In this document: positions 802 through 15,369 of the stretch, piece after piece
Position numbering within the stretch: the stretch's first letter is position 1
How the letters are laid out: each line of letters opens with the position of its first letter
IMG/VR virus record: IMGVR_UViG_2740892432_000001
Length of the DNA stretch: 15,369 nt
Strand: one strand, 5' to 3'
Source of the DNA: a virus
Taxonomy: Duplodnaviria; Heunggongvirae; Uroviricota; Caudoviricetes
Position numbers and translations under genes: made by a program
Notes under the pieces: model-generated
What the model was told of the DNA's origin: nothing
Database searches by the model: none
Seen by the model: the letters and a program-made list of their open reading frames with translations, nothing else

Positions 802-1726
802 TGATTTTTGCGCCTTTATTCTGACTCACGGGCGACCGGACAAAGTTCTGACTTACCGGACGTTGCGTCGTGCTGGCTATACCGGGAAAATTTTTATCGT
901 TGTTGATGATGAAGATAAGACACGGCATCAGTACATGGCTGAATTTGGTGAACAGGTGCTGGTGTTTTCCAAAGCCGATATCGCCAGTCGTTTTGACGAA
1001 GTCGATAATTTCTGTGACCGCCGCTCAATTTTTTACGCCCGTAATGCCTGTTTCGACCTGGCAAAACTGGTCGGGTGTAAATACTTCATTCAGCTCGATG
1101 ATGATTATCACGAGTTCCAGTTTCGGGTGGATCGCAACTATGACCAGGCCTATTTTCCGATAAGGAAACTGGATGCGATCCTTTCTGAAATGCTGGCGTA
1201 CTACGAATCAATACCTGCTCTTTCCATCGCTATGTCGCAGGGCGGGGATTTTCTTGGTGACAATGGCGGCCATGCTTCGTGGGTGAAACGCAAGGCAATG
1301 AACAGCTTTATCTGTTCGGTTGATCGACCGTTCTCATTCATGGGGCGCATTAACGAGGATGTGAATACGTACACGAATCTCGGTCGCTGTGGTGAATTGT
1401 TTATGACGATCGGTGCTGTCCAGTTAGGGCAGAAACAGACGCAGAAAAACAGCGGCGGAATGACCGAGCTGTATCTGGATTCCGGAACCTACGTTAAAAG
1501 TTTTTACTCCGTCATGTATGCGCCGTCGTGCGTAAAAATCTCACTGATGGGTGCCAGCCATAAACGCATTCACCATCAGGTCACCTGGAACAACGCTGCA
1601 GTAAAAATCCTTCACGAAAAATACAGGAAGAAGACACCCTGCATATCAATGGGGGTGACAAATGATTCCGTATTCGAAAGTCGAGTCTCTGGCAGCGTGC
1701 CGGATGACTGCACAACAAATCGCTGA
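794..1726 (+). CDS. Putative GT-A fold (GT2-like) glycosyltransferase, apparently cytoplasmic; target unknown
   Basis: ORF 773..1726 in the track. Preferred start is ATG 794, preceded by GGAGGAGGAA at 781-790. It has the GT2 N-terminal pattern (FILTHGRP ... KIFIVVDDEDKT) and a DxD-like motif (FIQLDDDY) about 100 aa in. No obvious transmembrane stretch. Family assignment is by motif only. Confidence 0.5.
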   Translation: MRDDFCAFILTHGRPDKVLTYRTLRRAGYTGKIFIVVDDEDKTRHQYMAEFGEQVLVFSKADIASRFDEVDNFCDRRSIFYARNACFDLAKLVGCKYFIQLDDDYHEFQFRVDRNYDQAYFPIRKLDAILSEMLAYYESIPALSIAMSQGGDFLGDNGGHASWVKRKAMNSFICSVDRPFSFMGRINEDVNTYTNLGRCGELFMTIGAVQLGQKQTQKNSGGMTELYLDSGTYVKSFYSVMYAPSCVKISLMGASHKRIHHQVTWNNAAVKILHEKYRKKTPCISMGVTNDSVFESRVSGSVPDDCTTNR

Positions 1727-1913
1727 CGTTCTGGATGTTGATCTGAACCGACTGAAAGAAAATCGGGAAGCAATGACAGATTTTTATGCGGCCATCCGTA
1801 AGGGCAGAGCGAAAGGTGAAGCCGAGTTACGAGCGGCATTGTTTAAGCTTGCCAGAAAAGGGGATGCCTTTGCTCTGCGCGAACTACTCAGGGTGGATAA
1901 AAATCAGGACTAA
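1662..1913 (+). CDS. Small helix-turn-helix protein upstream of the terminase; possible packaging-associated DNA-binding protein
   Basis: 83-aa ORF with a G-rich RBS (GGGGGTGA) before ATG 1662. Contains an HTH-like segment (MTAQQIADVLDVDLNRL). Overlaps the 3' end of the glycosyltransferase-like ORF by 65 nt. Confidence 0.45.
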   Translation: MIPYSKVESLAACRMTAQQIADVLDVDLNRLKENREAMTDFYAAIRKGRAKGEAELRAALFKLARKGDAFALRELLRVDKNQD

Positions 1914-1916
1914 CTG

Positions 1917-3011
1917 ATGAGCAGACCGGACTGGGGGGCGTTGCAGCAGGAGTATATTGCTGAATACACCCGCTCCGGTATATCTCCGGTGGCATGGTGT
2001 GAAGCAAGGGGACTGAATTACGCAACAGCCCGTCGTTACATCAAAAAAACTCCGAAAAATGCGCAGACAGAAATGTGCAAAACTGCGCAAAAAAGTGCGC
2101 AGAAAAAATCTGCGCAGACTGCACAAAAGCGGAACGAAAAATCTCAGGAAAAAAAGCCAGTATTCGATGCGGGCCTGAATGAGGGCGACGCGGAGGAATT
2201 TTCGTTCTGTCCCGATGAATTCGGCATTTCTGACCAGCAGGCTAAGTTTGCGATGCTTGTTGCTCAGGGTAAAAAGCCGACAGAGGCGTACCGACTAGCC
2301 GGTTATGAGGGGCAAGGTGCGACAGCTAACAGCAACGCCAGTCGTATGCTTAGAAATGCCAGGGTTTTTCGCGCTATCAGCTACTTCCGCAATCAGTACC
2401 AGAAACGCTATACCGCAGACCTGGATTTACTAGTGAGTCAGTTGATGGCTATTGTCCTGGCCGACCCCAATCAGCTTGCACAATTTCGCCGTGTTAACTG
2501 CCGTTATTGCTGGGGCGAGAATCATCTCTACCAGTGGCGCGATATAGCAGAATTCGACAAGGCAGCGGCGCAGGCTTCCAGAGATGGCAAACCCGAACCG
2601 GAATATGGAGGCCTCGGCTTTGTTGATAACGCCATACCCAATCCGGACTGCCCGAAGTGCTGCGGTGAGGGAACGGGACAGCTTTATATGGCTGATACCA
2701 CTCTGCTTGATGGGGATGCGCGGCAATTATATGCAGGGGCAAAATTCGGAAAATTCGGCGTTGAGATCCTGCTGGAGGATAAGGCTGCCGCCCGGCGTGA
2801 ATTGTTGCGTTTGTTTTCTGCTGGCGGGGCTTTATGTGCAGATAAACGGCTACAGGAACTGGAAATTGAACGGCGCAGAATGGAAAACCAGAAGCTGCGC
2901 AAAGAGATCGAAACGGTGGAAGATAATGAACATCCCCAGCCTGTGGCGATCAATATTAATGTGGTTGATGCCAGAGTAAGGAGTGATGAAGATGATCTCT
3001 CCGACGCTTAA
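1917..3011 (+). CDS. Terminase small subunit (TerS) with N-terminal HTH, low-complexity AQ/K linker and C-terminal Cys4 zinc-ribbon-like motif
   Basis: AGGA RBS before ATG 1917. Central segment (FAMLVAQGKKPTEAYRLAGYEG...ANSNASRMLRNARVFRAISYF) matches the terminase small subunit signature of the Terminase_2 type. Has CRYC...CPKCC cysteine pairs. Lies immediately upstream of and overlapping the large subunit. Confidence 0.7.
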   Translation: MSRPDWGALQQEYIAEYTRSGISPVAWCEARGLNYATARRYIKKTPKNAQTEMCKTAQKSAQKKSAQTAQKRNEKSQEKKPVFDAGLNEGDAEEFSFCPDEFGISDQQAKFAMLVAQGKKPTEAYRLAGYEGQGATANSNASRMLRNARVFRAISYFRNQYQKRYTADLDLLVSQLMAIVLADPNQLAQFRRVNCRYCWGENHLYQWRDIAEFDKAAAQASRDGKPEPEYGGLGFVDNAIPNPDCPKCCGEGTGQLYMADTTLLDGDARQLYAGAKFGKFGVEILLEDKAAARRELLRLFSAGGALCADKRLQELEIERRRMENQKLRKEIETVEDNEHPQPVAININVVDARVRSDEDDLSDA

Positions 3012-4293
3012 TGTGCCTCAGGCGCGATTTCTTTCAATGCCCCATAAATTTAAAGCCTATATTGCTGGTTTTGGCTCGGGCAAAACATGGGTTGGGTGTG
3101 GCGGCATATGCAAGGGGATTTGGGAGCATCCAGGTATAAATCAGGGATATTTTGCGCCAACGTATCCCCAAATTCGCGATATTTTTTACCCTACAGTGGA
3201 AGAAGTTGCTGCTGACTGGGGATTGAACGTAAAAATTAATGAGGGAAATAAAGAGGTTCACTTTTATTACGGACGCCAGTATCGGGGAACCACTATCTGC
3301 AGATCGATGGAGAAGCCACAAACGATCGTCGGTTTCAAAATTGGTAATGCGTTGGTGGATGAACTGGACATTTTGCCGAAGGAAAAAGCCAGAACGGCGT
3401 GGCGCAAGATAATTGCACGTATGCGTTATAAGATTGATGGACTTCGCAACGGTATTGACGTTACAACCACGCCGGAAGGATTCAAATTTGTCTACGAGCA
3501 GTTTGTTAAAGCCGTGCGTGAAAAAACAGAGCTGGCCTCACTGTATGGTCTGGTGCAGGCATCTACTTTCGATAATGAAAAGAACCTGCCAGCAGATTAC
3601 ATTCCTTCGCTTCTTGAATCATACCCTCCAGAGCTGATTAAAGCCTATCTTCGAGGACAGTTTACTAACCTGACAAGTGGTACTGTTTACCATCAGTTTG
3701 ACCGGAAACTGAATAATTGCGAAGAAGTGGAGCAGCCAGGGGAGCCGATTTATATTGGGATGGATTTTAACGTTGGAAAGATGGCGGGAATCGTCCATGT
3801 GCTGCGTTTGGGGCTTCCATGTGCGGTAACTGAAATCATCAATGCCTACGATACGCCGGATATGATCCGCATCATTAAAGAACGCTTCTGGCTGTATGAT
3901 GGGAATGATTACCGGAAAGTGAGGGAAATTTATATTTATCCAGATGCTTCCGGGGATTCCAGAAAATCAAGTAACGCAAGTACGACGGATATAGCCCAGC
4001 TTAAGCAGGCTGGTTTTAACGTTGTGGTGAACAGCTCGAACCCGCCAGTAAAAGATCGCGTTAACTCAATGAATGCAATGTTCTGCAATGCCAATGGTGA
4101 GCGTCGCTATAAAGTTAATGTGAAGCGTTGCCCGTTATATGCCGAATCTCTGGAGCAACAGGTCTGGGATGAGAAGGGGGAGCCTGATAAAAAATCTGGC
4201 AATGATCACCCGAATGATGCCGGAGGTTATTTCATCGTTAAGCAATTCCCTATTGTCAAACCGACCGGAAGAGTCACATCACTTCGGATTTAA
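2992..4293 (+). CDS. Terminase large subunit (TerL), ATPase/nuclease
   Basis: Walker A-like GFGSGKTW near the N-terminus; size and position are typical. The track ORF starts at GTG 2983. I prefer ATG 2992, 8 nt after the TAAGGAG RBS at 2977-2983, though 2983 or 2986 are possible. It overlaps the TerS stop. Confidence 0.8.
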   Translation: MISPTLNVPQARFLSMPHKFKAYIAGFGSGKTWVGCGGICKGIWEHPGINQGYFAPTYPQIRDIFYPTVEEVAADWGLNVKINEGNKEVHFYYGRQYRGTTICRSMEKPQTIVGFKIGNALVDELDILPKEKARTAWRKIIARMRYKIDGLRNGIDVTTTPEGFKFVYEQFVKAVREKTELASLYGLVQASTFDNEKNLPADYIPSLLESYPPELIKAYLRGQFTNLTSGTVYHQFDRKLNNCEEVEQPGEPIYIGMDFNVGKMAGIVHVLRLGLPCAVTEIINAYDTPDMIRIIKERFWLYDGNDYRKVREIYIYPDASGDSRKSSNASTTDIAQLKQAGFNVVVNSSNPPVKDRVNSMNAMFCNANGERRYKVNVKRCPLYAESLEQQVWDEKGEPDKKSGNDHPNDAGGYFIVKQFPIVKPTGRVTSLRI

Positions 4294-4295
4294 TT

Positions 4296-5702
4296 ATGGC
4301 TGATATATCAACACCCAACCTCGACTATAACGATATGCTGGAGGCGTGGGATATTAACGACGCACTGATGGGCGGTACGCTTGAAATGCGCAGGCAGGGG
4401 GAAAATTATCTCCCAAAATGGCCTAACGAAGATGAAGACGCTTATAAAAAACGCCTGTCTGTGGCTACGCTACTTCCTGTGTATGAAGAAAGCATCAAGC
4501 AAAATATTGGGCGCATATTTGCAGAGCCGACAGTATTGAGTGAGGAAACGCCGGCAAAAATCAGGGAATATGCAGAAAATATCGACATGGAGGGGAGCCG
4601 ACTGGATGTGTGGGCGCAGCAATTTTTCAGCCTCGCATTTCAGTATGGTGTGGCACATGCGCTGGTGGACTATCCACGAACGGATATGAAAGAGATTCGG
4701 ACAAAAGCCGATGAAAACGCGACCGGTGGTCGTCCGTACGTTACGATGCTGAATCCACGCCAGGTTATTGGATGGAAATCGAAAGTTGAAAAAGGGAAAG
4801 TTGTTCTCACTGATTTGCGTATAAAAGAGGTCATCATTATTGATGGTGATGATTTCGGGCAGAAGAAGGTGGAGCAGATCCGCCATATTATGCCCCGTCG
4901 AGTTGAAATTTATCGACGTAGCGAAGGCACTAATGGCGAATCTGTCTGGACGCTTCATGAGTCATGGAATACCAGCCGTGATGATATTCCTCTGGTAACA
5001 CTGTACACGAAGAAAACAGGATTTATGCGTGGTACACCGCCATTGCTTAATCTTGGCTTGCTGAATATCAAGCACTGGCAAAGCCAGAGCGAGCAGGACA
5101 ATATTCTTCATGTTGCCCGCGTTCCATTGCTGGTGGCCTACGGGCTGGACAGGAATGAAGAACTGACGGTTGGTGCATCCACCGCTACGATTTTTGAGGA
5201 CAGAACAAAAAATGGCCTCGAATATGTTGAACATAGTGGCGCAGCGATAGAATCTGGCGAAACATCACTTGAGAAGCTGGAAAATCAGATGCGTCATGCC
5301 GGCGCTAAACTTCTGCGTGCTGAAAATACATCCACCAAATCTGTTGATCAGACTAATGAAGAGCGAATGCAGGAAAACTCGCCGCTTTATACAATGGCGA
5401 ACTCCCTCGAAGATGCCCTCGATAATATTCTCCAGATAATGGCGGAATGGATCGGAGAGAGTTGCGGTGGCAATGTGGATGTGCGCACTGAACTGGATGT
5501 ATCTGCCCAGGTGTTTGACTCATCCTCCGCGCTGGCTGTTCAGTCATTGCGTCAGGGCGGTGATATACGTCAGATTGATGCGGTTCGGGTGTTGCAGGCG
5601 TTGAAATTTATCGATCAGGATTCCCGTCCAGAGGAAGTGATCGATGAATTAAAAAATCAGAGTGTAATGCTGATGGAAATCAATGATGCAAACCGTGAAT
5701 GA
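4296..5702 (+). CDS. Portal protein
   Basis: 468-aa ORF starting 2 nt after the TerL stop. Size and conserved position (TerL, portal, minor head protein) support the call. No specific motif verified. Confidence 0.65.
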   Translation: MADISTPNLDYNDMLEAWDINDALMGGTLEMRRQGENYLPKWPNEDEDAYKKRLSVATLLPVYEESIKQNIGRIFAEPTVLSEETPAKIREYAENIDMEGSRLDVWAQQFFSLAFQYGVAHALVDYPRTDMKEIRTKADENATGGRPYVTMLNPRQVIGWKSKVEKGKVVLTDLRIKEVIIIDGDDFGQKKVEQIRHIMPRRVEIYRRSEGTNGESVWTLHESWNTSRDDIPLVTLYTKKTGFMRGTPPLLNLGLLNIKHWQSQSEQDNILHVARVPLLVAYGLDRNEELTVGASTATIFEDRTKNGLEYVEHSGAAIESGETSLEKLENQMRHAGAKLLRAENTSTKSVDQTNEERMQENSPLYTMANSLEDALDNILQIMAEWIGESCGGNVDVRTELDVSAQVFDSSSALAVQSLRQGGDIRQIDAVRVLQALKFIDQDSRPEEVIDELKNQSVMLMEINDANRE

Positions 5703-6798
5703 ACGGCTGCGTGATGAATCAATTGCTCATGCAGTCTGGATATCCCGCTATAGCACTGGCGTGGCTGCCAGAATGGTGAAAATACTGAATGACAGCGATG
5801 CGGAACTTACTGCTCGCCTGCTGATAGCACTGGACAGCCTCGATCCAGGTAATTTTACCGTTAAGCGCCTGGAGTCACTTCTGGCGAGCGTCAGAGAGGT
5901 TAACCGCACTGCTATTAACAGCATGTTTACCAGTCTCTCCGGAGAGCTGAACGAGCTGGCAATTTATGAGGCTGGTTATCAGTTAAGTCTGTTTGATTCT
6001 ATGCTACCTGATTTTGTTGCTGATGTTCACCCTCTGGTTGGTATCTCTCCTGATGCACTTTATGCCGCTGCAATGGCGCGACCATTCCAGGGACGACTGC
6101 TCAGTGAGTGGGCCTCAGATCTTGAGGCGGATCGGCTCAGACGCATAACAAATACAGTGCGTCAGGGTTTTTTGCTGGGGGATACCAATGAGCAGATCGC
6201 AAGAAAAATTCGGGGACATGTCAGTAAGGGATTTCAGGATGGTGCATTGCAGATGAGCCGGGCTAATGCGGCCAGCATTGCAAAAACAGCGGTTGGACAT
6301 CTTGCTGCTACTGCCCGTGAGAGTTTTGCCAGCGCGAATAATGATTTGATTAAGGGTAAGCAATGGTTATCAACGCTTGATAATCGTACTACGCCACAAT
6401 GTCGAATCAGGGATCGCCTCAAATATACGCTGAATAATAAACCTGTAGGTCACAGCGTGCCTTATTTGCAGGGGCCGGGAAAAATTCATTTCTGCTGCCG
6501 CTCAACGGAAACGTTCATTCTGAAATCAGCGAAGGAACTGGGTATTGATGTTCGCGATATTTCCCCGGCTGAGCGGGCCAGCATGGATGGCGTGGTGGCC
6601 GGAGATACAACCTACAGGGAATGGTTTTTGCGTCAGCCTTACACCAGACAAAAACAGATTGTGGGGGAAACCCGAGCAAAGCTGATTCGGGATGGTGGTA
6701 TGTCGCCAGATGAATTTTACACCGATAAAGGCGAATGGCTGACGCTGAAGCAGCTCCGTGAGCGTGATGCACAGGTATTCAGAAAAGCAGGGATTTAA
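5683..6798 (+). CDS. Head morphogenesis / minor head protein (Mu gpF / SPP1 gp7-like)
   Basis: 371-aa ORF overlapping the portal stop by 20 nt. Position directly after the portal and overall composition are typical of the Mu F-like family. Followed by an intrinsic terminator. Confidence 0.6.
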   Translation: MMQTVNERLRDESIAHAVWISRYSTGVAARMVKILNDSDAELTARLLIALDSLDPGNFTVKRLESLLASVREVNRTAINSMFTSLSGELNELAIYEAGYQLSLFDSMLPDFVADVHPLVGISPDALYAAAMARPFQGRLLSEWASDLEADRLRRITNTVRQGFLLGDTNEQIARKIRGHVSKGFQDGALQMSRANAASIAKTAVGHLAATARESFASANNDLIKGKQWLSTLDNRTTPQCRIRDRLKYTLNNKPVGHSVPYLQGPGKIHFCCRSTETFILKSAKELGIDVRDISPAERASMDGVVAGDTTYREWFLRQPYTRQKQIVGETRAKLIRDGGMSPDEFYTDKGEWLTLKQLRERDAQVFRKAGI

Positions 6799-6817
6799 AT
6801 AAATCATTTATTACAAC

Positions 6818-6843
6818 AGGCTACCTTCGGGTGGCCTTTTTTA
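6818..6843 (+). terminator. Rho-independent terminator after the head morphogenesis gene
   Basis: AGGCTACC-TTCG-GGTGGCCT stem-loop (one G-U pair) followed by a T6 run, directly after the stop codon at 6798. Confidence 0.6.
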
Positions 6844-6902
6844 TTGCTGCGATCCGGATGGTGAGCAGCGTAACTGTCGGAAGACTTAAACCAGGTACTA
6901 AT

Positions 6903-7667
6903 ATGAAACTGAAAACGGTCGAGATTAACGGAAAACAATACGCAGAAATTGATACTGCTGGCCTGCCAGTTTATGTGCACGACGATGGTAAAGAAATTGG
7001 CTTCGATGCACCGCTGGCGACAAAAAAAATTACAGAGCTTAATGGCGAGGCAAAAAATCATCGCCTGGCTAAAGAAGCTGCAGAGGAAAAACTGGCTAAG
7101 TTTGCCGCTATCGAAGACCCGAAGAAGGCGATCGAGGCACTGGAAATGCTGTCAAAAATCGACCAGAAAAAGCTGCTCGATGCGGGACAGGTTGACCAGG
7201 TTAAGGCAGAAATTACGAAAAATTTTCAGCAGCAATTAGATGAAGAAAAGCAACGCTCTCAGATGCTGGAGAAGCAGCTTTACGATTCTATGATTGGCGG
7301 TAGTTTTGCGGGTTCAAAATATATTGCCGATAAAATTGCGATCCCGGCAGATTTATTACAAGCCCGCTTCGGGCAGGCATTCAAAGTGGAAGAAGGGAGG
7401 ATCGTTGCTTATGACGCTTCCGGCAACAAAATTTATTCCCGCGCGAAGCCTGGCGAACTGGCGCAGTTTGATGAGGCGCTGGAGTTCCTTGTCGAAAATT
7501 ACCCTCAGAAAGACTACATCCTGAAAGCCAGTGGCAACAATGGCGGCGGCTCCCGTCCGACACAGCATGATATTGGTCAGAAAACGATGAAACGCTCTGC
7601 TTTTGATGCACTGGATGTTGCAGGTAAGCAAAACGCATTGAAAGACGGTATCACAATCGTTGATTAA
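6903..7667 (+). CDS. Putative scaffolding protein
   Basis: Track ORF 6831..7667 begins with GTG inside the terminator. I prefer ATG 6903 (MKLKTVEINGK...). The product is charged, K/E/Q-rich and predicted helical, and sits between the minor head protein and the major capsid protein. Confidence 0.5.
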   Translation: MKLKTVEINGKQYAEIDTAGLPVYVHDDGKEIGFDAPLATKKITELNGEAKNHRLAKEAAEEKLAKFAAIEDPKKAIEALEMLSKIDQKKLLDAGQVDQVKAEITKNFQQQLDEEKQRSQMLEKQLYDSMIGGSFAGSKYIADKIAIPADLLQARFGQAFKVEEGRIVAYDASGNKIYSRAKPGELAQFDEALEFLVENYPQKDYILKASGNNGGGSRPTQHDIGQKTMKRSAFDALDVAGKQNALKDGITIVD

Positions 7668-7765
7668 CACATTTGTCAGCTTCCGGATGGGAGCTGGTGT
7701 CAGGGCTGGATAGCTCATTACTCCATCTATTCACAATTACGCAAATTTTTAAGGAATATTTAATT

Positions 7766-8905
7766 ATGGCTGGAAATACCCTGACCGGGTTGATCCCGAC
7801 TATTTATACCGCCCTGGATGTTGTATCCCGTGAGCAGGTAGGTTTTATCCCTGCGGTAGCAAAAAACGCAAAAGCTGACGCCGCAGCAAAAGATCAAACG
7901 GTAACCGCGCCAGTTGCGCCTGAGGCGAAAACCGAAGATATCGTACCGGGGCCGTCAGCTCCGAATACCGGTGATCAAAATATTGGCACTGTTGATGTAA
8001 AAATTACTAAATCCAAAATGGCACCGGTTAAATGGAATGGTGAAGAACAACTGGCTCTTGGCCCTTCAGGGACTTACAACACCATTCTGGCTGATCAGTT
8101 CAAGCAGGCTTTTCGCGCCCTTGCAAACGAGGTTGAGGCTGATCTTGGTGCGTTGTATTTCGGTGCTTCCCGCGCCGTGGGAACCGCAGGGACAACGCCG
8201 TTTGGTGTTAAAGATGATCTTTCTGATGCTGCTCTGGCTCGTCAGGTTCTGGAGGATAACGGCGCACCGACAACCGATCTGCAGATGGTGCTTGGCTCCA
8301 CTGCCATTGCTAATTTGCGCGGAAAACAGTCTGTATTATTTAAAGTGAATGAATCCGGCACTGAACAGCTACTGCGTGAGGGCGTGTTGGGGCGTCTGGA
8401 GGGATTCAATATTCACAGTTCGGCAGGTGTGAAACGAGCGCCAAAGGTTGCTGCAACTGGTTATCTCGTGAATGGAGAGAAAAAAGAAGGCGATGTTCTT
8501 ATTTCCATTGATACTGGTTCGGGGAGTATTTCTGCAGGTCAGATTGTTACGTTCGCTGGTGATCCGAATCAGTATGTTGTGGCAGCAGCGACCAGCAATC
8601 TGATTACTCTTGCAGCGCCCGGACTGCGTCAGGATCTGGCCGATGATACTGCCATCACAGTTGTTGGGGCCTTTACTGCAAATATGGCGTTTGATCGCAA
8701 CGCGTTTCTGCTGGCATCCCGTACTCCGGCAATGCCGGAAGGTGGCGATAATGCTGATGATGTAATGAATGTTACGGACCCGATTTCAGGGATTACGTTC
8801 CAGATTGCACTGTATCGTCAGTATCGCCAGGTGCGCTATGAAGTTGGACTGGCATGGGGTGTTTCATCAGTGAAGCCGGCACATGGTTGTCTGATTCTTG
8901 GTTAA
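7766..8905 (+). CDS. Major capsid protein
   Basis: Track ORF 7673..8905. Preferred start is ATG 7766 with an AAGGA RBS (MAGNTLTGLIPTIYTALDV...). About 380 aa, directly after the scaffold gene and followed by a strong terminator, the usual arrangement for a highly expressed coat gene. Confidence 0.7.
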   Translation: MAGNTLTGLIPTIYTALDVVSREQVGFIPAVAKNAKADAAAKDQTVTAPVAPEAKTEDIVPGPSAPNTGDQNIGTVDVKITKSKMAPVKWNGEEQLALGPSGTYNTILADQFKQAFRALANEVEADLGALYFGASRAVGTAGTTPFGVKDDLSDAALARQVLEDNGAPTTDLQMVLGSTAIANLRGKQSVLFKVNESGTEQLLREGVLGRLEGFNIHSSAGVKRAPKVAATGYLVNGEKKEGDVLISIDTGSGSISAGQIVTFAGDPNQYVVAAATSNLITLAAPGLRQDLADDTAITVVGAFTANMAFDRNAFLLASRTPAMPEGGDNADDVMNVTDPISGITFQIALYRQYRQVRYEVGLAWGVSSVKPAHGCLILG

Positions 8906-8915
8906 ACATTCAAAC

Positions 8916-8936
8916 GGGGCTTCGGCCCCATTTTTA
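8916..8936 (+). terminator. Rho-independent terminator after the major capsid gene
   Basis: GGGGC-TTCG-GCCCC hairpin followed by ATTTTT, 10 nt after the capsid stop codon. Confidence 0.7.
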
Positions 8937-8947
8937 ATGGGGGGCAT

Positions 8948-9124
8948 ATGGCCGGATTAACTAAAGAGCAAAGAGCACAGCGTGAAGCCGCACAAAAAAC
9001 GCAAATTGAGTTAGTGGTTATGGTGACCGATTATCAGATGTTTCCCGGCGCACCAACTATCGCTAATGTTCATCCTGATGAAGTTGACAACTGGAAGGCT
9101 ATGGGCTGGAAAACTCAGGAGTAA
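8948..9124 (+). CDS. Small hypothetical protein (58 aa) between the capsid and head-tail joining genes; below the ORF-track length cutoff
   Basis: Hand-translated as MAGLTKEQRAQREAAQKTQIELVVMVTDYQMFPGAPTIANVHPDEVDNWKAMGWKTQE, with a G-rich RBS (GGGGGG) upstream of ATG 8948. It fills an otherwise uncoded gap, and the next gene's RBS follows immediately. Confidence 0.4.
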   Translation: MAGLTKEQRAQREAAQKTQIELVVMVTDYQMFPGAPTIANVHPDEVDNWKAMGWKTQE

Positions 9125-9127
9125 CAC

Positions 9128-9523
9128 ATGATCACTTACGTGACCTGTGATGACGTTGATAATGCGTTTGGGAACGCCTGGACGAGTGAGAACGCTAAAA
9201 ATAAAGCTGTTTTAATGGCTAATGCCTGGCTTAATGGCTTCAACCTGAAAATTAACCCATCCCGTATTCCGGAAGAGGTAAAACTTGCGGGAGCATATGC
9301 AGCCAGAATTGCCTCATTCGGTAAGTTGTTTCAGCAGAAAAATGATTCTGGCGTTGTTATCAGTAAAGCCGTGTCGGCTGACGGGGTCAGTGTATCGAAA
9401 TCATTTTCTGAGTTGCCAGCAAACAGCACTGCATTGCTTGAACCCGATTTACAGCTTGCGATAGCACTGCTGAAACCGTACGGACTTAGTCGCTCACAAG
9501 TCAGGGTTGTGAGGGGGGGATAA
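9128..9523 (+). CDS. Putative head-tail connector / head completion protein
   Basis: 131-aa ORF with an AGGAG RBS 7 nt before ATG 9128. Size and position are typical of head-tail adaptor proteins. Family not verified. Confidence 0.45.
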   Translation: MITYVTCDDVDNAFGNAWTSENAKNKAVLMANAWLNGFNLKINPSRIPEEVKLAGAYAARIASFGKLFQQKNDSGVVISKAVSADGVSVSKSFSELPANSTALLEPDLQLAIALLKPYGLSRSQVRVVRGG

Positions 9524-9906
9524 TGGGGCTTCGTGAAGAGATTCAGTCAGAGGTTGCCGCTGCTTTTGATGAGGATTTAGCGGACGCCGTGAGTGATTTT
9601 TCTGGTTCTTACGTTACGCACCGGCACTGGGATCCTGTGACGGAAACTGGCGGCGAATCCACCGCAATCTATACCGGGCGAGGCGTGTTGACACGTTATA
9701 AGCTGGGCAGAATTGATGGGATTAATATTTTGCATGGTGACCTTAAATTAACCGCTCTGGTATGCGAGGTTACGGATAAACCAGCTGTCGACCATATTAT
9801 TGAGATTTATGATCCTGTATCAAGGCAGTTACAACGATACGAGGTAATTACAGCAAGTGTAGATCCTTCCGCATCAGTTTACTCTATCCAGTTAAGGAGA
9901 GCGTAA
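9523..9906 (+). CDS. Putative head closure / neck protein
   Basis: 127-aa ORF translationally coupled to the previous gene (TAATG overlap at 9521-9525) with a GGGGGGG RBS. Assigned by position in the head-tail joining cluster. Confidence 0.4.
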   Translation: MGLREEIQSEVAAAFDEDLADAVSDFSGSYVTHRHWDPVTETGGESTAIYTGRGVLTRYKLGRIDGINILHGDLKLTALVCEVTDKPAVDHIIEIYDPVSRQLQRYEVITASVDPSASVYSIQLRRA

Positions 9907-10287
9907 ATGGCAAAGGCATGGGATATAGAACCGTCAATATTTGCCGGGATGATTGAGGAAGATGTAGGGCTGAAGATTCGCTACATCGCTATTCAGATTC
10001 TTACTGCTATTGATATTGCTGCTCCGGTTGATACCGGACGTTTCAGAAATAACAACCTGGTGTCGTTACAGCATCCCGATTTTGGTATATCTGATAACGT
10101 GGATCCGAACGGTACGATTGCTGTTCAGCGTGGGATCGGGGTTATTTCGAAAGCTGCAAATTACGGGGTTATTTATATCCAAAATAACCTTCCTTATGCA
10201 GAGGCTCTTGAAAACGGTCATTCACAACAAGCGCCAACTGGCGTGTATGCCAACGCTTTTCATGGTGTTTTACAGGCTTACAAATGA
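9907..10287 (+). CDS. HK97 gp10-family protein (tail completion / head-tail joining)
   Basis: AAGGAG RBS and ATG immediately after the previous stop. Contains a PVDTGRFRNN motif resembling the DTGxLRxS signature of the HK97 gp10 family, recalled from memory. Confidence 0.55.
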   Translation: MAKAWDIEPSIFAGMIEEDVGLKIRYIAIQILTAIDIAAPVDTGRFRNNNLVSLQHPDFGISDNVDPNGTIAVQRGIGVISKAANYGVIYIQNNLPYAEALENGHSQQAPTGVYANAFHGVLQAYK

Positions 10288-10676
10288 AGTTTACTGAAAT
10301 CAGAAATACGGTTATTTCCAGAATGACGGCACAGACGATTATTGATGGAAAAGACGTATTGTATCCGAACGGGCCAACGTTCGATCCTTCCGGTAAGTTA
10401 ATCTGGGCGCGGTTAAGTAATATTCCCGGGCAGGCTGGAGTTAATGAAATTGGCGCGGGGCCGGTTGTTTATCGCACGGGGATAATCATTATTCAGTTAT
10501 TTGTCCCCGCAGGTTCTGGTTCAAAACTCATTACTGAGACAGCCGATAAATTGCGGGAACTGTTTGAGTTTCAGGATGACGATCGTCTCAGTTACCAGGC
10601 TGTTTCCTCAATAGCCGTCGGCGAAAAGAATGGCTGGTTCCAGCTTAATCTTCAAATTCCATATCACGCGCTCTAG
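10284..10676 (+). CDS. Putative tail terminator / tail completion protein
   Basis: 130-aa ORF coupled to the previous gene by an ATGA overlap at 10284-10287. Lies just upstream of the tail tube gene, the usual place for the tail terminator. Confidence 0.4.
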   Translation: MKFTEIRNTVISRMTAQTIIDGKDVLYPNGPTFDPSGKLIWARLSNIPGQAGVNEIGAGPVVYRTGIIIIQLFVPAGSGSKLITETADKLRELFEFQDDDRLSYQAVSSIAVGEKNGWFQLNLQIPYHAL

Positions 10677-10702
10677 CGCAATTAATGACATAGGAGGCTC
10701 CT

Positions 10703-11665
10703 GTGAGTTCAGGTGCAAAGGTTATCTCGGCATTTATCCGGGAGACAGTTGCAGGCACTACGCCAGCAAGTGGTGACTGGAGTTTATTAAAACGCACAAG
10801 CTGGGGAGTAAAACCCACCCAGAATAAAGGCGAAAATAATGAGATTGGTGGCTCCCGGATGGCTCAGGGGGCGACGCCTGGCACTGTGGATGTCGGCGGT
10901 GATGTTGGTACCAAATTTCGCTGGGGTCAACATGATGATTTTCTTGCATCCTGTTTCGGCGCGGAATGGTCAGGCGATTCTCTGACAATGGGGAATGAGC
11001 GAATAACATTTTCTCTGGCGACCTATGCGTCCGATGTCGGAATTGCCTCTGTCGTCAGAGGAGCGCAGGTTGGCTCATGGAAAATGCAGATCCCTAACGA
11101 CGGCGATATTACAGCGACCGTAACCTTTGCCGGGCTGGGCTGGGAATCAAAGGCCGATGATACGAATTTTATCAAAGGCGAACCTGTGGATAGTGCAGGA
11201 AAGTTACGCTATTCGTTTAAGGCGGTTTCAGCAGTAAGCCTGAATGGTGTTGCCGGAGGTAACGGTTTTTGTATCGACAGTTTTGATATTCAGTTCGATA
11301 ACAAACTCCAGACACAGCGTTGTATCGGGACTGGCTCGCCTTATGCAGGAGCAAATATTCCGACTACTTTTACACCGTCCGGTACGGTGACGCTTTCATG
11401 GTCTAAAGCCGCGTGGGAAATCTGGAGTAAAACACTGACTGGAGAAACAGTTCCGTTCAGCTTCACGCTTTCGAATGGAGAGGGGGCATACACTTTCAGT
11501 TTCCCGAAGGTTCAGGTGTCAGGTGAATGGCCTGATGGGGGTAATACTGACATTATCCAGGTTCAATTGAGCATTACCGCAGCAGATGAAGCACCTACGA
11601 TAACCAGAAAAAAATGCTCCCCGACTGCCGTGATCGCAAAAGCCAGTGCTGATGCGATTAGTTGA
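10703..11665 (+). CDS. Major tail tube protein
   Basis: GTG start 5 nt after a TAGGAGG RBS. 320 aa, G/T/S-rich and beta-rich, located between the head-tail joining genes and the G/GT chaperone pair. Confidence 0.6.
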   Translation: MSSGAKVISAFIRETVAGTTPASGDWSLLKRTSWGVKPTQNKGENNEIGGSRMAQGATPGTVDVGGDVGTKFRWGQHDDFLASCFGAEWSGDSLTMGNERITFSLATYASDVGIASVVRGAQVGSWKMQIPNDGDITATVTFAGLGWESKADDTNFIKGEPVDSAGKLRYSFKAVSAVSLNGVAGGNGFCIDSFDIQFDNKLQTQRCIGTGSPYAGANIPTTFTPSGTVTLSWSKAAWEIWSKTLTGETVPFSFTLSNGEGAYTFSFPKVQVSGEWPDGGNTDIIQVQLSITAADEAPTITRKKCSPTAVIAKASADAIS

Positions 11666-11677
11666 TTTTCCGTTATT

Positions 11678-11704
11678 CCCCCTGTGGTACTGCACTACAG
11701 GGGG
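11678..11704 (+). promoter_or_regulatory. Stable stem-loop without a U-tract downstream of the tail tube gene; possible transcript stabiliser or partial attenuator
   Basis: CCCCCTGT (11678-11685) pairs with ACAGGGGG (11697-11704) around an 11-nt loop. No T-run follows. Confidence 0.4.
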
Positions 11705-11713
11705 ACGCATTGA

Positions 11714-12175
11714 ATGAGGTTATGGATGTTTATTCTTAATCAGAAAATTATCATCGGTGGAGAACGCTGGTTTACGCCAATGAAGGACTTAAAACCTGTA
11801 GACGGGTTAAAACTGTTGGTGGCAAGCAGCGATAACGATCAGTATCGCTCCCGTAATGCATTAATCCGTCGTCACATTGAGAAAATGGATGCCAGTTTGC
11901 ACGTCGGAACGAAGGAGTTTGATATTTCAAAGGTTTCCGAGGTAGATTCTGTTGATGATTTACTCATTGATAATGCTGCTCGTTATCTGCTGAAAGACTG
12001 GAAAGGGGTTGGTGAACTGGTTAATGGTGCTGAGGTTGCACTGGAATATACGCCAGAACGAGGGATCGCGCTGCTTAAGCAGAATCCAGAGTTGTACTGG
12101 CAGATCCTTGCAGAAGCAGCCAGCATCGCCCAGGGTAAAGAGCAGCAGAAGCAGGATACGATAAAAAAGCCATAG
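11714..12175 (+). CDS. Tail assembly chaperone (lambda gpG-like)
   Basis: Acidic ~150-aa ORF between the tail tube and tape measure genes. It ends with the slippery heptamer A_AAA_AAG just before its stop, and an open -1 frame follows. The start is ambiguous (ATG 11714, 11726 or 11780). Confidence 0.6.
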   Translation: MRLWMFILNQKIIIGGERWFTPMKDLKPVDGLKLLVASSDNDQYRSRNALIRRHIEKMDASLHVGTKEFDISKVSEVDSVDDLLIDNAARYLLKDWKGVGELVNGAEVALEYTPERGIALLKQNPELYWQILAEAASIAQGKEQQKQDTIKKP

Positions 12176-12483
12176 CCGCCCAGCGGTGGTTATCGGAGTT
12201 CGGGGGAGAAAGGGGGGAAAAGGCAAGATGGAAGCGAGAAAAACTCAGGTTGCCACCGATACCGGAACCAGAAATAGACCCGGTGCTTAAGGAATTGTTG
12301 TACGCCTATTCGGTAATATCCCGTGCCCGACGTTATGCTGGAATGACCGGGGTGCCTTTGCCTTTATCTCTGACAGAGATAAATGAATATTTAGCCACTC
12401 ATCCGGTATTGATTGAGCGCGATGAGTTTGAAGCAGTGATCTTTGCACTGGATGACCAGTATTTTCAGGAGCAGTGTGTGTAG
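11714..12483 (+). CDS. Tail assembly chaperone -1 frameshift fusion product (lambda gpGT-like)
   Basis: The -1 frame is open from 12139 to the stop at 12483. Slipping at A_AAA_AAG (12163-12169) joins the gpG-like frame to it, giving ...IKK then AIAAQRWLSEFGGERGEKAR...FQEQCV. This is the conserved G/GT arrangement of long-tailed phages. Confidence 0.55.
12163..12169 (+). other. Programmed -1 ribosomal frameshift slippery site A_AAA_AAG
   Basis: The heptamer AAAAAAG is positioned in the zero frame as A AAA AAG (codons AAA 12164-12166, AAG 12167-12169), two codons before the chaperone stop (TAG 12173-12175). Confidence 0.6.
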
Positions 12484-12603
12484 TTGTTAATTACGTACAC
12501 TCTGTTACAGAGATGTGATGGTGTCTTTAATTAAATCGATGATGCTCCTGGAGAAAAGCATTGCGTGGCCTCGTAATCGCTATATCTACTATTATGTCGC
12601 CTG

Positions 12604-12630
12604 AAACCCACTTCGGTGGGCTTTTTGTTG
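12604..12630 (+). terminator. Rho-independent terminator-like hairpin between the chaperone and tape measure genes
   Basis: CCCAC-TTCG-GTGGG hairpin (12607-12620) followed by CTTTTTGTTG, then a GGAG RBS and the ATG at 12647. Likely a partial terminator lowering expression of the low-copy tape measure protein. Confidence 0.5.
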
Positions 12631-12646
12631 TCTGGAGTTTTAATAA

Positions 12647-14797
12647 ATGGCAGAGCAAACCTCGCGTCTCGCAATAATTATTGATAGCACTGGAGCAAAA
12701 AATAATGCTGACAATCTGACCTCCTCATTAGTCAAAATGACGCAGGCCGGGGAAACTGCTGCAAATAGCGCAGGGAAAGTGACTAAGGCAACAGAAGATG
12801 AGAAGAACGCGCTCGCAAAATTAAAAGCAGCTATTGATCCAGTTGGTGCCGCAATTGATACTGTCGGTCGACGCTATTCTGAATTAAAGAAATTTTTCGA
12901 TAAAGGGCTTATTGATAAAGAAGAATATGAATTTCTTGTCCGTAAACTTAATGAAACCACAGAGGAATTGAGCGGGGTTGCGCAAGCGCAGAGAGAAGCC
13001 GAGAAGGCCGGAAAACTTGCTGCCGCCCAGCAGGAAGCGCAGGCTCAGGCCTTTCAAAGAATGCTGGACAAGATCGACCCTCTGGCTGCGGCGCTAAGAA
13101 ATCTTGAACAACAGCAGGATGAACTTAATGCTGCGTTTGCATCCGGGAAAATAAATGGTTCTCAGTTTGAGAATTATAGCCGAAAAATGCAGGAAACACG
13201 GCGAGAGCTTACCGGAGAGGCTCAGGCAGAGCGAGAAGCAGCAAAAGCGCATGATGAACAGGTTGCTGCTTTGCAACGTCTGATTGCTCAACTTGACCCT
13301 GTCGGAACTGCTTTTAATCGTCTGGTAGAACAACAGAAACAGCTCAATGAAGCAAAAGCTAAGGGGATGCTCTCTCCTGAAATGTATGAGGAACTTTCTG
13401 GAAAACTTCGTGCTATGCGGAGTGAGCTTGAGGTTACTCAATCTCAATTAAGCAAAACCGGAATGTCGGCAAAACAAACGGCTTTTGCTATGCGCATGTT
13501 GCCTGCACAAATGACGGATATTGTTGTTGGGTTGTCCACTGGTCAGTCGCCTTTTATGGTGTTAATGCAGCAGGGCGGCCAGCTAAAAGATATGTTCGGT
13601 GGGATTGGCCCGGCGATCAAAGGTGTTGGTTCTTATGTGCTGGGATTAATTAATCCTTTTACCCTGGCCGCAGCAGCCGTTGGCGTCTTAGGGCTGGCTT
13701 ACTATAAAGGCTCTCAGGAGCAGGACGAATTTAATAAATCTCTTATTCTTACCGGAAATCAGTTGGGGACAACCAGCGGGCAATTGGCCGATATAGCTCA
13801 ACGTGCCGGGAATGCGGCTGATTCGACAACTGGCGCTGCGGCGGCAGTATTAAACCAGCTTGTGCGTTCGGGAAAGGTAGCGAGCAGTTCGCTGGAGCAA
13901 GTGACGACAGCGATAGTAAAAACGAGCGAAGTAACAGGAATATCAACCGAACAACTGGTTAATGACTTCAATGAAATTGCAAAGGATCCTGTCAGTGCCA
14001 TATCAAAACTTAATGATCAGTACCATTTTCTGACAATTGCGACTTATAACCAGATTAAGGCGCTACAGGATGAAGGGAACCAGCAGGAGGCCGCCCGCAT
14101 TGCGACAGAAGCATACTCATCCTCAATGATCCAGCGCACCAACCAGATTAAAGAAAATCTTGGTTATCTTGAGACTGCATGGAAAGCTGTCGCAGACTCC
14201 GCAAAATGGGCATGGGATTCCATGCTGGACATTGGCCGTGAGGCCTCCCTTGATCAAAAAATCTCAGATGTTCTCCGTCAAATTGATGAAATAGAAAAAA
14301 ATACCCAACCCGGAGTTTTCGGGTTAGGTGGCATTGGAGATGGCGGAGCTCAAAATAAAAGGCTGGCACGATTAAAGCAGCAATTGGGCGTACTTCAAGC
14401 AGAAAAAATTGGTGCGCATACCCATAGTTTAAGTGGCAGCACGAATGCAGCTGGTAATCACAGCCATAGAGATGGCCGTCGATTTAACCCCAGTGTTTTT
14501 AAAGATACTTATCAATATGGTTATACAAGCTCAGGTCAAAATACCTGGGGTGTACAAGGCTCAGTAGGTATGTCTACGGGGTGGTTAGCTAATACCAGTA
14601 CAGATGGTAATCATAGCCACTCACTGTCCGGCACAGCAGCATCTGCAGGTGCACACGCGCATACTGTCGGTATTGGTGCTCATACGCACTCCGTTGCGAT
14701 TGGTTCACATGGACACACCATCACCGTTAACGCTGCTGGTAACGCGGAAAACACCGTCAAAAACATCGCATTTAACTATATTGTGAGGCTTGCATAA
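12647..14797 (+). CDS. Chimeric protein: lambda gpH-like tail tape measure N-terminal region (about aa 1-585) fused in frame to a side-tail-fibre C-terminal HxH tip domain (about aa 586-716)
   Basis: The N-terminal part is coiled-coil rich and contains the gpH-family block [38 protein letters not shown]. From about nt 14400 the sequence switches to repeated GxHxHS motifs ([40 protein letters not shown]) and ends ...[18 protein letters not shown], matching the lambda Stf C-terminus as I recall it. Confidence 0.6.
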
Positions 14798-15369
14798 TGG
14801 CATTCAGAATGAGTGAACAACCACGGACCATAACAATTTATAATCTGCTGGCCGGAACTAATGAATTTATTGGTGAAGGTGATGCATATATTCCGCCTCA
14901 TACAGGTCTGCCAGCAAACAGTACCGATACTGCACCGCCAGATATTCCGGCTGGCTTCGTGGCTGTTTTCAACAGTGATGAGTCATCGTGGCATCTCGTT
15001 GAAGATCATCGGGGTAAAACGGTTTATGACGTGGCTTCCGGCGACGCGTTATTTATTTCTGAACTCGGTCCGTTACCGGAAAATGTTACCTGGTTATCGC
15101 CGGAAGGGGAGTTTCAGAAGTGGAACGGCGCAGCCTGGGTGAAGGATACGGAAGCAGAAAAACTGTTCCGGATCCGGGAGGCGGAAGAAACAAAAAACAA
15201 CCTGATGCAGGTAGCCAGTGAGCATATTGCGCCGCTTCAGGATGCTGCAGATCTGGAAATTGCAACGGAGGAAGAAATCTCGTTGCTGGAAGCATGGAAA
15301 AAGTATCGGGTATTGCTGAACCGTGTTGATACGTCAACTGCACAGGATATTGAATGGCCAGCACTGCCG
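14797..15369 (+). CDS. tfa: Tail fibre assembly protein (lambda Tfa-like), 3'-partial at the window edge
   Basis: Not in the ORF track because no stop falls within the window. Hand translation from ATG 14797 (TAATG overlap with the upstream stop) is open for 191 codons to the window end: [39 protein letters not shown]... This is near-identical in pattern to the lambda Tfa N-terminus as recalled. Confidence 0.7.

What the first reader, a model, noticed from the sequence alone, without database searches (positions are those of the whole stretch)
12139..12483. Tail chaperone -1 frameshift can be read directly from the sequence
The gpG-like ORF ends two codons after a textbook A_AAA_AAG heptamer. 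The -1 frame is open from 12139 and runs another ~105 codons to 12483. A rho-independent terminator-like hairpin at 12604-12630 then precedes the tape measure gene. The ORF track reports the downstream part only as a separate 77-aa ORF with a TTG start, which is almost certainly wrong. The extension is the 'T' domain that would bind the tape measure protein.
Basis: partly seen in the sequence, partly recalled or inferred. Interest (0 to 1): 0.4.

Follow-up and report, generated by a model that had tools for sequence, protein, structure and literature searches.

The report
Unannotated tail-chaperone frameshift in Rac prophage
This is an ordinary phage tail-assembly chaperone gene pair (G and its frameshift-extended form GT) in a Rac-type E. 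coli prophage; the signal is real and conserved, but public annotations miss it.

Summary
An in-phase A_AAA_AAG heptamer lies at 12163-12169. The 0-frame stop follows at 12173-12175. The -1 frame is open from 12139 to 12483, which gives 104 sense codons after the slip.

The window is a Rac-type E. coli prophage, and the upstream ORF is the full-length form of K-12 'ydaY'. It matches PHROG 313 'tail assembly chaperone'. The conceptual fusion matches that profile in one stretch across the junction.

All 98 related loci from at least ten enterobacterial genera carry a heptamer at the same codon position: 93 A_AAA_AAG, 4 G_GGA_AAG and 1 degenerate. In those aligned, the -1 frame is conserved at the amino-acid level from the first codon after the heptamer and shows third-position periodicity. 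The 0-frame stop position varies.

There is no start codon before TTG 12250, and that TTG is not conserved. No conserved downstream stimulatory structure was found.

In lambda the G part binds the tape measure and T binds the tube protein.

This copy lies in a prophage missing about 11 kb of tail genes, so it is probably idle here. It is a new, unannotated member of a well-known kind, and interest is low.

The parts
10703..11665 (+). Major tail tube gene. By analogy with lambda gpV it is the presumed binding partner of the T domain.
   Evidence: Pfam PF18906 Phage_tube_2, E=1.9e-32. phrog_290. RefSeq names it 'phage tail tube protein'.
11677..11705 (+). 12-bp hairpin between the tube gene stop and the G start. 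Its 3' arm contains the GGGGGA Shine-Dalgarno of ATG 11714.
   Evidence: Fold of 11663-11730: -24.2 kcal/mol, z=-2.49. Function not tested.
11726..12175 (+). Gene G, the tail assembly chaperone: the full-length form of 'ydaY', 149 aa, 16.9 kDa. An alternative upstream ATG at 11714 would add 4 residues.
   Evidence: phrog_313 'Tail assembly chaperone', E=8e-47. PF27119 Phage_YdaY on all homologues. The start MFIL/MIIL is shared across genera. Mass.
12163..12169 (+). Slippery heptamer A_AAA_AAG, in phase with G.
   Evidence: Sequence. A heptamer occupies the same position in all 98 related loci: 93 AAAAAAG, 4 GGGAAAG, 1 GGGGAAG.
12173..12175 (+). 0-frame stop (TAG) that ends G for ribosomes that do not shift.
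   Evidence: In relatives the 0-frame stop lies 10 to 112 nt after the heptamer start.
12169..12483 (+). T extension in the -1 frame: 104 sense codons plus stop. It is reachable only by the shift. The GT product is residues 1-148 of G plus these 104, giving 252 aa and 28.8 kDa.
   Evidence: Translation. Conserved at the amino-acid level from the first codon. Substitutions by -1-frame codon position are 910/589/1864, and there are no stops in 16 diverged sequences. The fusion matches phrog_313 in one stretch, residues 5-249.
12170..12196 (+). Local hairpin directly after the heptamer. It is specific to this lineage, and a stimulatory role is not supported.
   Evidence: Predicted (91-nt fold z=-1.12). 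Absent from the consensus structure of 16 relatives. Downstream 50-nt folds have z between -1.2 and +1.0 in all 16.
12518..12604 (+). 28-codon ORF in the 163-nt spacer between T and the tape-measure gene. Its coding status is unresolved.
   Evidence: Read. No family hit. Among 62 loci carrying this spacer, the start is ATA in 7 and one has an internal stop.
12604..12630 (+). Intrinsic-terminator-like hairpin plus T tract, upstream of the tape-measure gene.
   Evidence: stem 12607-12620. Kept in 62 related loci, most with a better stem and T run.
12647..14797 (+). Tape-measure gene, truncated and fused by an ~11 kb deletion (junction about 14410) to the 3' end of a tail-fibre gene (stfR).
   Evidence: PF06791 TMP_2, E=5e-82. 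Residues 586-716 hit tail-fibre PHROGs. Blast against the undeleted prophage L002.

Best explanation
This is the G/GT tail-assembly-chaperone pair of a Rac-type siphovirus prophage, expressed by programmed -1 ribosomal frameshifting.

**Mechanism (inferred).**
- Most ribosomes translating G (11726-12175) read ATA AAA AAG CCA and stop at TAG 12173. This gives a 149-aa G protein.
- A minority slip back one base on A_AAA_AAG (12163-12169). The tRNA-Lys in the P and A sites re-pair from AAA-AAG to AAA-AAA.
- Those ribosomes continue with GCC at 12169 and read 104 further codons to 12483, giving a 252-aa GT protein.

**Function (inferred from lambda).** The shared G part binds the tape-measure protein. 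The T part recruits the tube protein (10703-11665). Both leave the finished tail.

**What is shown:** the anatomy, the family assignment, and conservation of the heptamer and of -1-frame coding in relatives.

**What is inferred:** that shifting occurs, its few-percent efficiency, and the binding partners.

In this window the prophage lacks its tail-tip genes. The signal is therefore intact but probably has no role in this host.
For: - **Gene order.** Tail terminator, tube, G, T, tape measure.
- **Family.** G matches phrog_313 'tail assembly chaperone' at E=8e-47. The T frame matches the C-terminal part (positions 174-246) of the same 258-position profile.
- **Fusion.** The conceptual fusion matches phrog_313 in one stretch, residues 5-249 to profile 20-246, E=1.7e-51. 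Its match to phrog_8233 improves from E=0.0099 to 1.1e-7 and spans the junction.
- **Heptamer conservation.** All 98 related loci have an in-phase heptamer at the homologous codon: 93 A_AAA_AAG, 4 G_GGA_AAG (the lambda site) and 1 degenerate. The loci include Escherichia, Shigella, Citrobacter, Raoultella, Pectobacterium, Serratia, Pantoea, Providencia, Dryocola and Scandinavium.
- **Frames.** The -1 frame stays open for 104-119 codons in 94 of the 98 loci (four short copies, 39-100 codons). The 0-frame stop moves between +10 and +112 nt.
- **Coding signal.** Amino-acid conservation begins at the first -1 codon. The first 27 residues are 59-96% identical in relatives. Substitutions peak at the third position of the -1 frame (910/589/1864). 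The 0 and +1 frames carry stops in 15 and 13 of the 16 sequences, the -1 frame none.
- **No independent start.** There is no start codon in the -1 frame before 12250. That TTG is not conserved, and the candidate starts have weak Shine-Dalgarno pairing. Gene callers give the downstream piece many different N-termini.
- **Annotated relative.** Acinetobacter phage TRS1 has a homologous T part (36.5% identity, E=6e-8) and a curated joined CDS whose 746-nt span fits a -1 shift.
- **Fold.** The AF2 model of GT gives BFVD hits to full-length fused tail or tape-measure chaperones of phages Loki, CcrColossus, Seurat and K1H.
Against: - There is no direct evidence of the two proteins.
- No conserved or statistically significant stimulatory RNA structure lies downstream, and there is no conserved upstream SD-like element. 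Efficiency would rest on the heptamer alone.
- The heptamer by itself is no more frequent than chance.
- No detectable sequence similarity to lambda G or T and no solved structure.
- The G half of the model has low confidence, pLDDT below 50. The binding roles are therefore borrowed from lambda.
- This prophage copy is tail-defective.
Confidence: 0.9

Rival explanations
1. Two independent genes. The downstream ORF is translated on its own from TTG 12250 (77 aa) or GTG 12283 (the 66-aa RefSeq model), with no frameshift.
For: GenBank and RefSeq records annotate it this way: ON470595 has a 61-aa 'hypothetical protein' and NZ_CP050047 a 66-aa one. phrog_1189 is a family of such stand-alone calls. 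TTG 12250 has modest SD pairing, -5.0 kcal/mol.
Against: The 27 codons upstream of 12250 are as conserved as the rest and show -1-frame periodicity, yet they contain no start codon. The TTG is CTC/CTA/CTT/CTG/TTA in other genera. Called N-termini differ from record to record. The heptamer is conserved or swapped for another slippery heptamer.
Confidence: 0.04
2. A decayed gene. One ancestral 250-aa chaperone gene was broken by a 1-nt deletion in an A run in a defective prophage, so the split is a pseudogene lesion rather than a signal.
For: The prophage is defective and related copies carry pseudogenes. A-run indels do occur: P0025 has A7 instead of A6, and P0001 is an in-frame deletion variant.
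Against: The split, at the same codon and with a slippery heptamer, is present in all 98 loci across many genera, including complete prophages and phage records. Four loci have G_GGA_AAG, which is not a homopolymer lesion. The one 'fused' database protein examined at DNA level comes from an assembly with a second indel upstream, which suggests assembly error.
Confidence: 0.03
3. Transcriptional slippage. RNA polymerase adds or skips an A in the A run, so some mRNAs carry the fusion in frame.
For: The site contains a run of six A. Transcriptional realignment is known on long A or T runs (PMC3711429).
Against: The run is only six A, whereas that paper cites runs longer than seven for realignment. 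Relatives with G_GGA_AAG have only three A and three G, yet keep the same two-frame layout. That fits tandem tRNA slippage rather than polymerase slippage.
Confidence: 0.03

Closest known systems
Phage lambda G / GT tail assembly chaperones (Levin, Hendrix & Casjens 1993; Xu, Hendrix & Duda 2004, 2013, 2014, as summarised in PMC5009743)
   Same: The position between the major tail gene and the tape-measure gene is the same. So is the layout of two ORFs with the second in the -1 frame and lacking its own start. The slippery heptamer lies near the 3' end of G. Four relatives use lambda's own heptamer G_GGA_AAG. The sizes are similar: lambda G 140 aa and T 144 aa, against 149 and 104 here.
   Different: There is no detectable sequence similarity to lambda G or T. 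The heptamer here is A_AAA_AAG. The 0-frame stop comes one codon after the site, whereas in lambda the G and T ORFs overlap by 19 nt. A terminator-containing 163-nt spacer separates T from the tape-measure gene, whereas in lambda T overlaps H.
Acinetobacter phages vB_AbaS_TRS1 / Loki tail assembly chaperone (annotated joined CDS TRS1_19)
   Same: The T part is homologous (36.5% identity, E=6e-8). The tube-G-GT gene order is the same. The CDS is curated as joined. The Loki protein is the best structural match to the GT model. Extra small genes and a terminator also lie between GT and the tape measure.
   Different: The host is distant and the sequences are far apart. TRS1 has an in-phase G_GGA_AAG about 80 nt before the G stop, but the tool did not show the exact join coordinate in the record.
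HK97-like tail assembly chaperone frameshift cluster of GeneTack (Antonov et al. 2013, PMC3711429)
   Same: It is a prophage-borne G/GT pair found in bacterial genomes. Measured reporter efficiencies of 6-7% give the expected order of magnitude.
   Different: It is a different protein family. No measurement exists for the YdaY family.
E. coli dnaX A_AAA_AAG frameshift
   Same: The heptamer is identical and the tRNA-Lys slippage mechanism is the same.
   Different: dnaX has an upstream SD-like stimulator and a downstream hairpin, and shifts at about 50%. Neither stimulator is conserved here. Here the shifted product is the longer one.

Membership tests
G/GT-type tail assembly chaperone pair with programmed -1 frameshift (Xu, Hendrix & Duda 2004 class) | Located between the major tail (tube) gene and the tape-measure gene | tested here: met
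   Tube gene 10703-11665 (PF18906). Tape-measure gene 12647- (PF06791)..
G/GT-type tail assembly chaperone pair with programmed -1 frameshift (Xu, Hendrix & Duda 2004 class) | Two overlapping ORFs, the second in the -1 frame and without its own conserved start | tested here: met
   The -1 frame is open 12139-12483. The first start codon, TTG 12250, is not conserved and has a weak SD.
G/GT-type tail assembly chaperone pair with programmed -1 frameshift (Xu, Hendrix & Duda 2004 class) | In-phase slippery heptamer X_XXY_YYZ within the overlap | tested here: met
   A_AAA_AAG at 12163-12169. It is the only such heptamer in the 36-nt overlap.
G/GT-type tail assembly chaperone pair with programmed -1 frameshift (Xu, Hendrix & Duda 2004 class) | Layout and heptamer conserved in diverged relatives, with protein-level selection on the -1 frame right after the site | tested here: met
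   97 of 98 loci have a canonical heptamer and one has GGGGAAG. Conservation and periodicity are shown.
G/GT-type tail assembly chaperone pair with programmed -1 frameshift (Xu, Hendrix & Duda 2004 class) | Two proteins, G and GT, made in a fixed ratio; both needed for tail assembly and absent from virions | not testable with these tools
   Needs protein-level and genetic experiments.
G/GT-type tail assembly chaperone pair with programmed -1 frameshift (Xu, Hendrix & Duda 2004 class) | G part binds the tape measure and T part binds the major tail protein | not testable with these tools
   The roles are taken from lambda (PMC5009743). There is no interaction data for this family.
PHROG 313 'Tail assembly chaperone' (family containing full-length fused products) | Significant profile match, collinear over both halves | tested here: met
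   G alone: E=8e-47, profile positions 13-149. Fusion: E=1.7e-51, one stretch, profile positions 20-246 of 258.
Pfam PF27119 Phage_YdaY | Match of the G part to the family model | tested here: inconclusive
   The precomputed annotation lists PF27119 on every homologue, including 98-100% identical proteins. The model is not in the local Pfam copy, which returned no family for G.
Lambda gpG and gpT protein families | Detectable sequence homology to lambda G or T | tested here: not met
   hhalign probability 0.1-0.2%. No Pfam hit to a lambda-type family. T gives only a sub-threshold hit to PF23812 Phage_TAC_18: 20.3 bits against a cut-off of 27.
Tail assembly chaperone fold (solved or predicted TAC structures) | Structural similarity of the product to known chaperones | tested here: inconclusive
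   The AF2 model has mean pLDDT 62.9; the G half is below 50 and the T half about 85. BFVD top hits are fused chaperones (E 2.6e-5 to 5.6e-4), but TM-scores are only 0.31-0.42. A PDB sequence search found nothing.
Stimulated frameshift cassettes of the dnaX type | Conserved upstream SD-like element and downstream stem-loop | tested here: not met
   Consensus fold is -2.09 kcal/mol with no covariation. Per-sequence z-scores range from -1.2 to +1.0. The upstream CAGGA is absent in Providencia.

The most novel reading that the evidence does not exclude
The G/GT cassette survives intact (slip site plus 104-codon T frame) in tail-defective and heavily deleted Rac remnants, including E. coli K-12, where it lies in 'intergenic' DNA between ydaY and ynaA. 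It might be retained because a remnant chaperone made in the wrong amount or ratio interferes with tail assembly of related superinfecting siphoviruses. That would make it a domesticated decoy rather than dead DNA. Nothing here tests this. The identity between copies is high enough that simple recency of the deletions explains the intactness.
Probability: 0.04. Interest if true: 0.5.

Novelty: new member of a known kind. Interest (0 to 1): 0.15.

Why it matters
The main value is for annotation.

- The same region is found in 1074 of 5426 complete E. coli genomes.
- In every record I looked at, the chaperone is named only 'protein YdaY'. Where I checked the coordinates (NZ_CP050047), the gene model is a truncated 119-aa form copied from the K-12 remnant.
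- The T frame is either called as a 61-66-aa 'hypothetical protein' or not called at all.
- No ribosomal slippage is recorded.
- Even the K-12 reference genome holds the intact slip site and T frame in what is listed as a 474-bp intergenic gap.

Correcting this would give a proper name and product to a very common prophage gene. It would also add a clean natural example of A_AAA_AAG and G_GGA_AAG exchanging at one site.

It does not change what is known about frameshifting or tail assembly.

Tried and rejected
- **Downstream stimulatory structure.** A hairpin at 12170-12196 is predicted in this lineage. The folds are no better than shuffles, and there is no consensus structure or covariation in 16 relatives. 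Rejected as a demonstrated stimulator.
- **Upstream SD-like stimulator.** CAGGA at 12152-12156 is weak and absent in Providencia.
- **Rfam.** Nothing at the site.
- **NCBIfam.** No family for G or T.
- **PDB sequence search.** No hit with the G profile.
- **Lambda G and T.** No similarity.
- **In-frame 'fused' database protein P0025 (Providencia).** I first took this as support. Its DNA has A7 instead of A6 and a second frame change upstream, so it is an assembly error or pseudogene, not independent evidence.
- **AF2 model.** The G half is too uncertain to test the chaperone fold.
- **Literature.**
  - No searchable paper links ydaY or Rac to frameshifting.
  - I could not obtain Gurvich et al. 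2003 (EMBO J). From memory, it assayed A_AAA_AAG sites in K-12 genes, so whether ydaY was among them is unknown.
- **28-codon ORF 12518-12604.** There is too little variation to judge, and the start is lost in 7 of 62 loci.

Full report
**What is at the coordinates.**
- The ORF 11714..12175 (an in-frame ATG at 11726 is the start shared with relatives) ends ...ACG ATA AAA AAG CCA TAG.
- A_AAA_AAG (12163-12169) is therefore in the X_XXY_YYZ phase, and the 0-frame stop is at 12173-12175.
- The -1 frame has a stop at 12136-12138 and is then open to the TAG at 12481-12483. A shift on the heptamer adds 104 codons.
- The mechanical ORF list shows only a 77-aa ORF from TTG 12250, the first possible start in that frame.
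- A terminator-like hairpin (stem 12607-12620, then CTTTTTGTTG) precedes the tape-measure start at 12647.

**Is it more than chance?**
- The bare heptamer is not enriched: 5 copies against 4.94 expected.
- Only 1.9% of codon positions in the + strand genes have 104 or more open -1 codons.
- Of 22 in-phase X_XXY_YYZ heptamers, only this one and an ordinary gene overlap at 9514 lead into a long -1 frame.
- For example, the in-phase A_AAA_AAG at 2150 in the small terminase gene runs into a -1 stop after 8 codons.

**Where the window comes from.**
- It is 99.8% identical to a Rac-type prophage of E. coli strain 90-1, and the region occurs in 1074 of 5426 complete E. coli genomes.
- The upstream ORF is what RefSeq calls 'ydaY'.
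- K-12 ydaY is a remnant. The K-12 Rac deletion joins window position 263 to 11824, so the K-12 gene lacks the first third of G.
- RefSeq copies that 119-aa model, with a TTG start at 11816, onto the full-length gene in NZ_CP050047, the one record where I checked the coordinates.
- The window's own prophage is also defective. Window 14410 onward continues about 11 kb further along the reference prophage. The tape-measure ORF is thus fused to the 3' end of stfR, and the tail-tip genes are missing. Residues 586-716 hit tail-fibre PHROGs.

**What the proteins are.**
- Gene order is tail terminator (PF13554), tube (PF18906), G, T, tape measure (PF06791).
- G matches phrog_313 'Tail assembly chaperone' at E=8e-47, over profile positions 13-149 of 258. 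The -1 extension weakly matches positions 174-246 of the same profile, and strongly matches phrog_1189, a family of stand-alone calls of this piece.
- The conceptual fusion matches phrog_313 in one stretch (residues 5-249, profile 20-246, E=1.7e-51). Its match to phrog_8233 'tail assembly chaperone' improves from E=0.0099 to 1.1e-7 across the junction.
- Homologues carry the newer Pfam family PF27119 Phage_YdaY.
- There is no similarity to lambda G or T, no NCBIfam model and no solved relative.

**Comparative evidence.**
- I fetched 17 loci from species genomes and 80 from viral contigs.
- All 98 sequences, counting the window, have a heptamer at the homologous codon: 93 A_AAA_AAG, 4 G_GGA_AAG (Raoultella, Serratia, two Pantoea) and 1 GGGGAAG (Pectobacterium).
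- The 0-frame stop lies anywhere from 10 to 112 nt after the heptamer start. The -1 frame is open for 104-119 codons in all but four short or decayed copies.
- In an ungapped alignment of 16 diverged sequences, the -1 frame has no stops. The 0 and +1 frames carry stops in 15 and 13 of the 16 sequences. Pairwise differences by -1-frame codon position are 910, 589 and 1864, the signature of coding in that frame.
- The amino-acid sequence is conserved from the first codon after the slip: AIAAQRWLSEFGGERGEKARWKREKL here against VIEAQKWLTEFGGERSEKAKWKRKQL in Providencia.
- These first 27 residues lie upstream of TTG 12250. They are 59-96% identical in relatives, at least as conserved as G or the rest of T.
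- The TTG itself is CTC, CTA, CTT, CTG or TTA elsewhere.
- Candidate starts have weak SD pairing, and database gene calls for this piece begin at many different places.
- A distant relative, Acinetobacter phage TRS1, has a T part 36.5% identical to this one. It carries a curated joined CDS whose 746-nt span fits a -1 shift.

**Stimulators.**
- A hairpin at 12170-12196 is predicted, but the 91-nt fold has z=-1.12 and the 181-nt fold z=-0.03.
- The consensus structure of 16 relatives is four invariant or one-sided pairs at -2.09 kcal/mol, with no compensatory change.
- Single-sequence folds of the 50 nt after the heptamer have z between -1.2 and +1.0 in every relative.
- The upstream CAGGA is not conserved.
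- The site therefore seems to rely on the heptamer itself. [quoted passage not shown] A 3' CC, as found here, was the most favourable neighbour tested.

**Structure.**
- An AF2 model of the 252-aa fusion has mean pLDDT 62.9. The G half is below 50 and residues 140-250 are about 76-90. One long helix (121-159) runs through the junction.
- The best BFVD matches are full-length fused chaperones of phages Loki, CcrColossus, Seurat and K1H. E-values are 2.6e-5 to 1.4e-2, but TM-scores are only 0.31-0.42.
- I treat this as weak support only.

- The best explanation is the standard one. G (149 aa, 16.9 kDa) is the main product and GT (252 aa, 28.8 kDa) a minor -1 product.
- Comparable prophage chaperone sites gave 6-7% in reporters (PMC3711429). 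Lambda makes G and GT at about 30:1 (PMC5009743).
- In lambda the G part of both proteins binds the tape measure, and the T domain binds the major tail protein.
- For this family the partners are inferred, not tested.

**Rivals.**
- Independent initiation is contradicted by the conserved, start-less 27 codons.
- A pseudogene lesion is contradicted by conservation of the split across genera and by the heptamer swap.
- The 'fused' protein P0025 that seemed to show a natural fusion has A7 instead of A6 plus another frame change upstream. It is therefore an assembly error or a dead gene.
- Transcriptional slippage is unlikely on six A. It cannot explain the G_GGA_AAG relatives.

**Novelty.**
- The kind is textbook.
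- The instance appears undescribed. No ribosomal slippage is annotated in the phage, RefSeq or K-12 records, and no searchable paper links ydaY or Rac with frameshifting.
- The library is incomplete, however, and I could not read Gurvich et al. 2003.
- K-12 MG1655 keeps the heptamer at 1425968-1425974 and an intact T frame ending at 1426288 within its listed ydaY-ynaA gap.

**Verdict.** This is a new, unannotated member of a known kind, and interest is low.

Noticed in passing
window 12647-14797 (junction about 14410): The tape-measure ORF is a deletion fusion. Window 25-14411 matches the reference Rac-type prophage up to the middle of its tape-measure gene, and 14410-15369 continues about 11 kb further on inside stfR. 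The tail-tip genes (M, L, K, I, J, lom) are missing, and the last ~130 residues are tail-fibre sequence.
   Followed up: partly
window 11816-12175; K-12 NC_000913.3 1425621-1426288: In the RefSeq record I checked (NZ_CP050047), the full-length chaperone gene is named 'ydaY' with a TTG start at 11816 (119 aa). This copies the 5'-truncated K-12 remnant, whose deletion junction corresponds to window 263/11824. K-12 still has the in-phase heptamer (1425968-74) and an intact 104-codon T frame in its listed intergenic gap.
   Followed up: yes
window 11677-11705: A 12-bp hairpin lies between the tube gene stop and the G start (z=-2.49). It has no T tract. Its 3' arm covers the GGGGGA Shine-Dalgarno of ATG 11714, so it could lower G translation relative to the tube protein or stabilise the upstream transcript. 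Providencia has a terminator-like hairpin at the same place.
   Followed up: partly
window 12484-12646: The 163-nt spacer between T and the tape-measure gene contains a 28-codon ORF (12518-12604) that ends in the terminator. The terminator is kept in 62 related loci. The ORF's ATG is ATA in 7 of them, and one has an internal stop. In other genera the same gap is 29 nt to 1.4 kb and holds inserted genes, some with signal peptides, so it appears to be a moron insertion site. Phages TRS1 and Aurca01 show the same.
   Followed up: partly
window 2150-2156: A second in-phase A_AAA_AAG lies in the small terminase gene (1917-3011). The -1 frame closes after 8 codons, so any slippage there would only truncate the protein.
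   Followed up: partly
window 15140-15338 (+): Rfam IS009 (RF02111) matches at 220.9 bits, full length, inside the tfaR-like tail fibre assembly ORF at the end of the window.
   Followed up: no
L014 2920-2926 (Pectobacterium odoriferum): This is the one relative whose heptamer is GGGGAAG instead of GGGAAAG. The site is non-canonical and may reduce or abolish shifting in that copy.
   Followed up: no
L002 8086-9199 and 19316-20059: The otherwise undeleted reference prophage in strain 90-1 has a frameshifted minor head gene and an internal stop in the C40 peptidase (gpK-like) gene, so it is also decayed.
   Followed up: no
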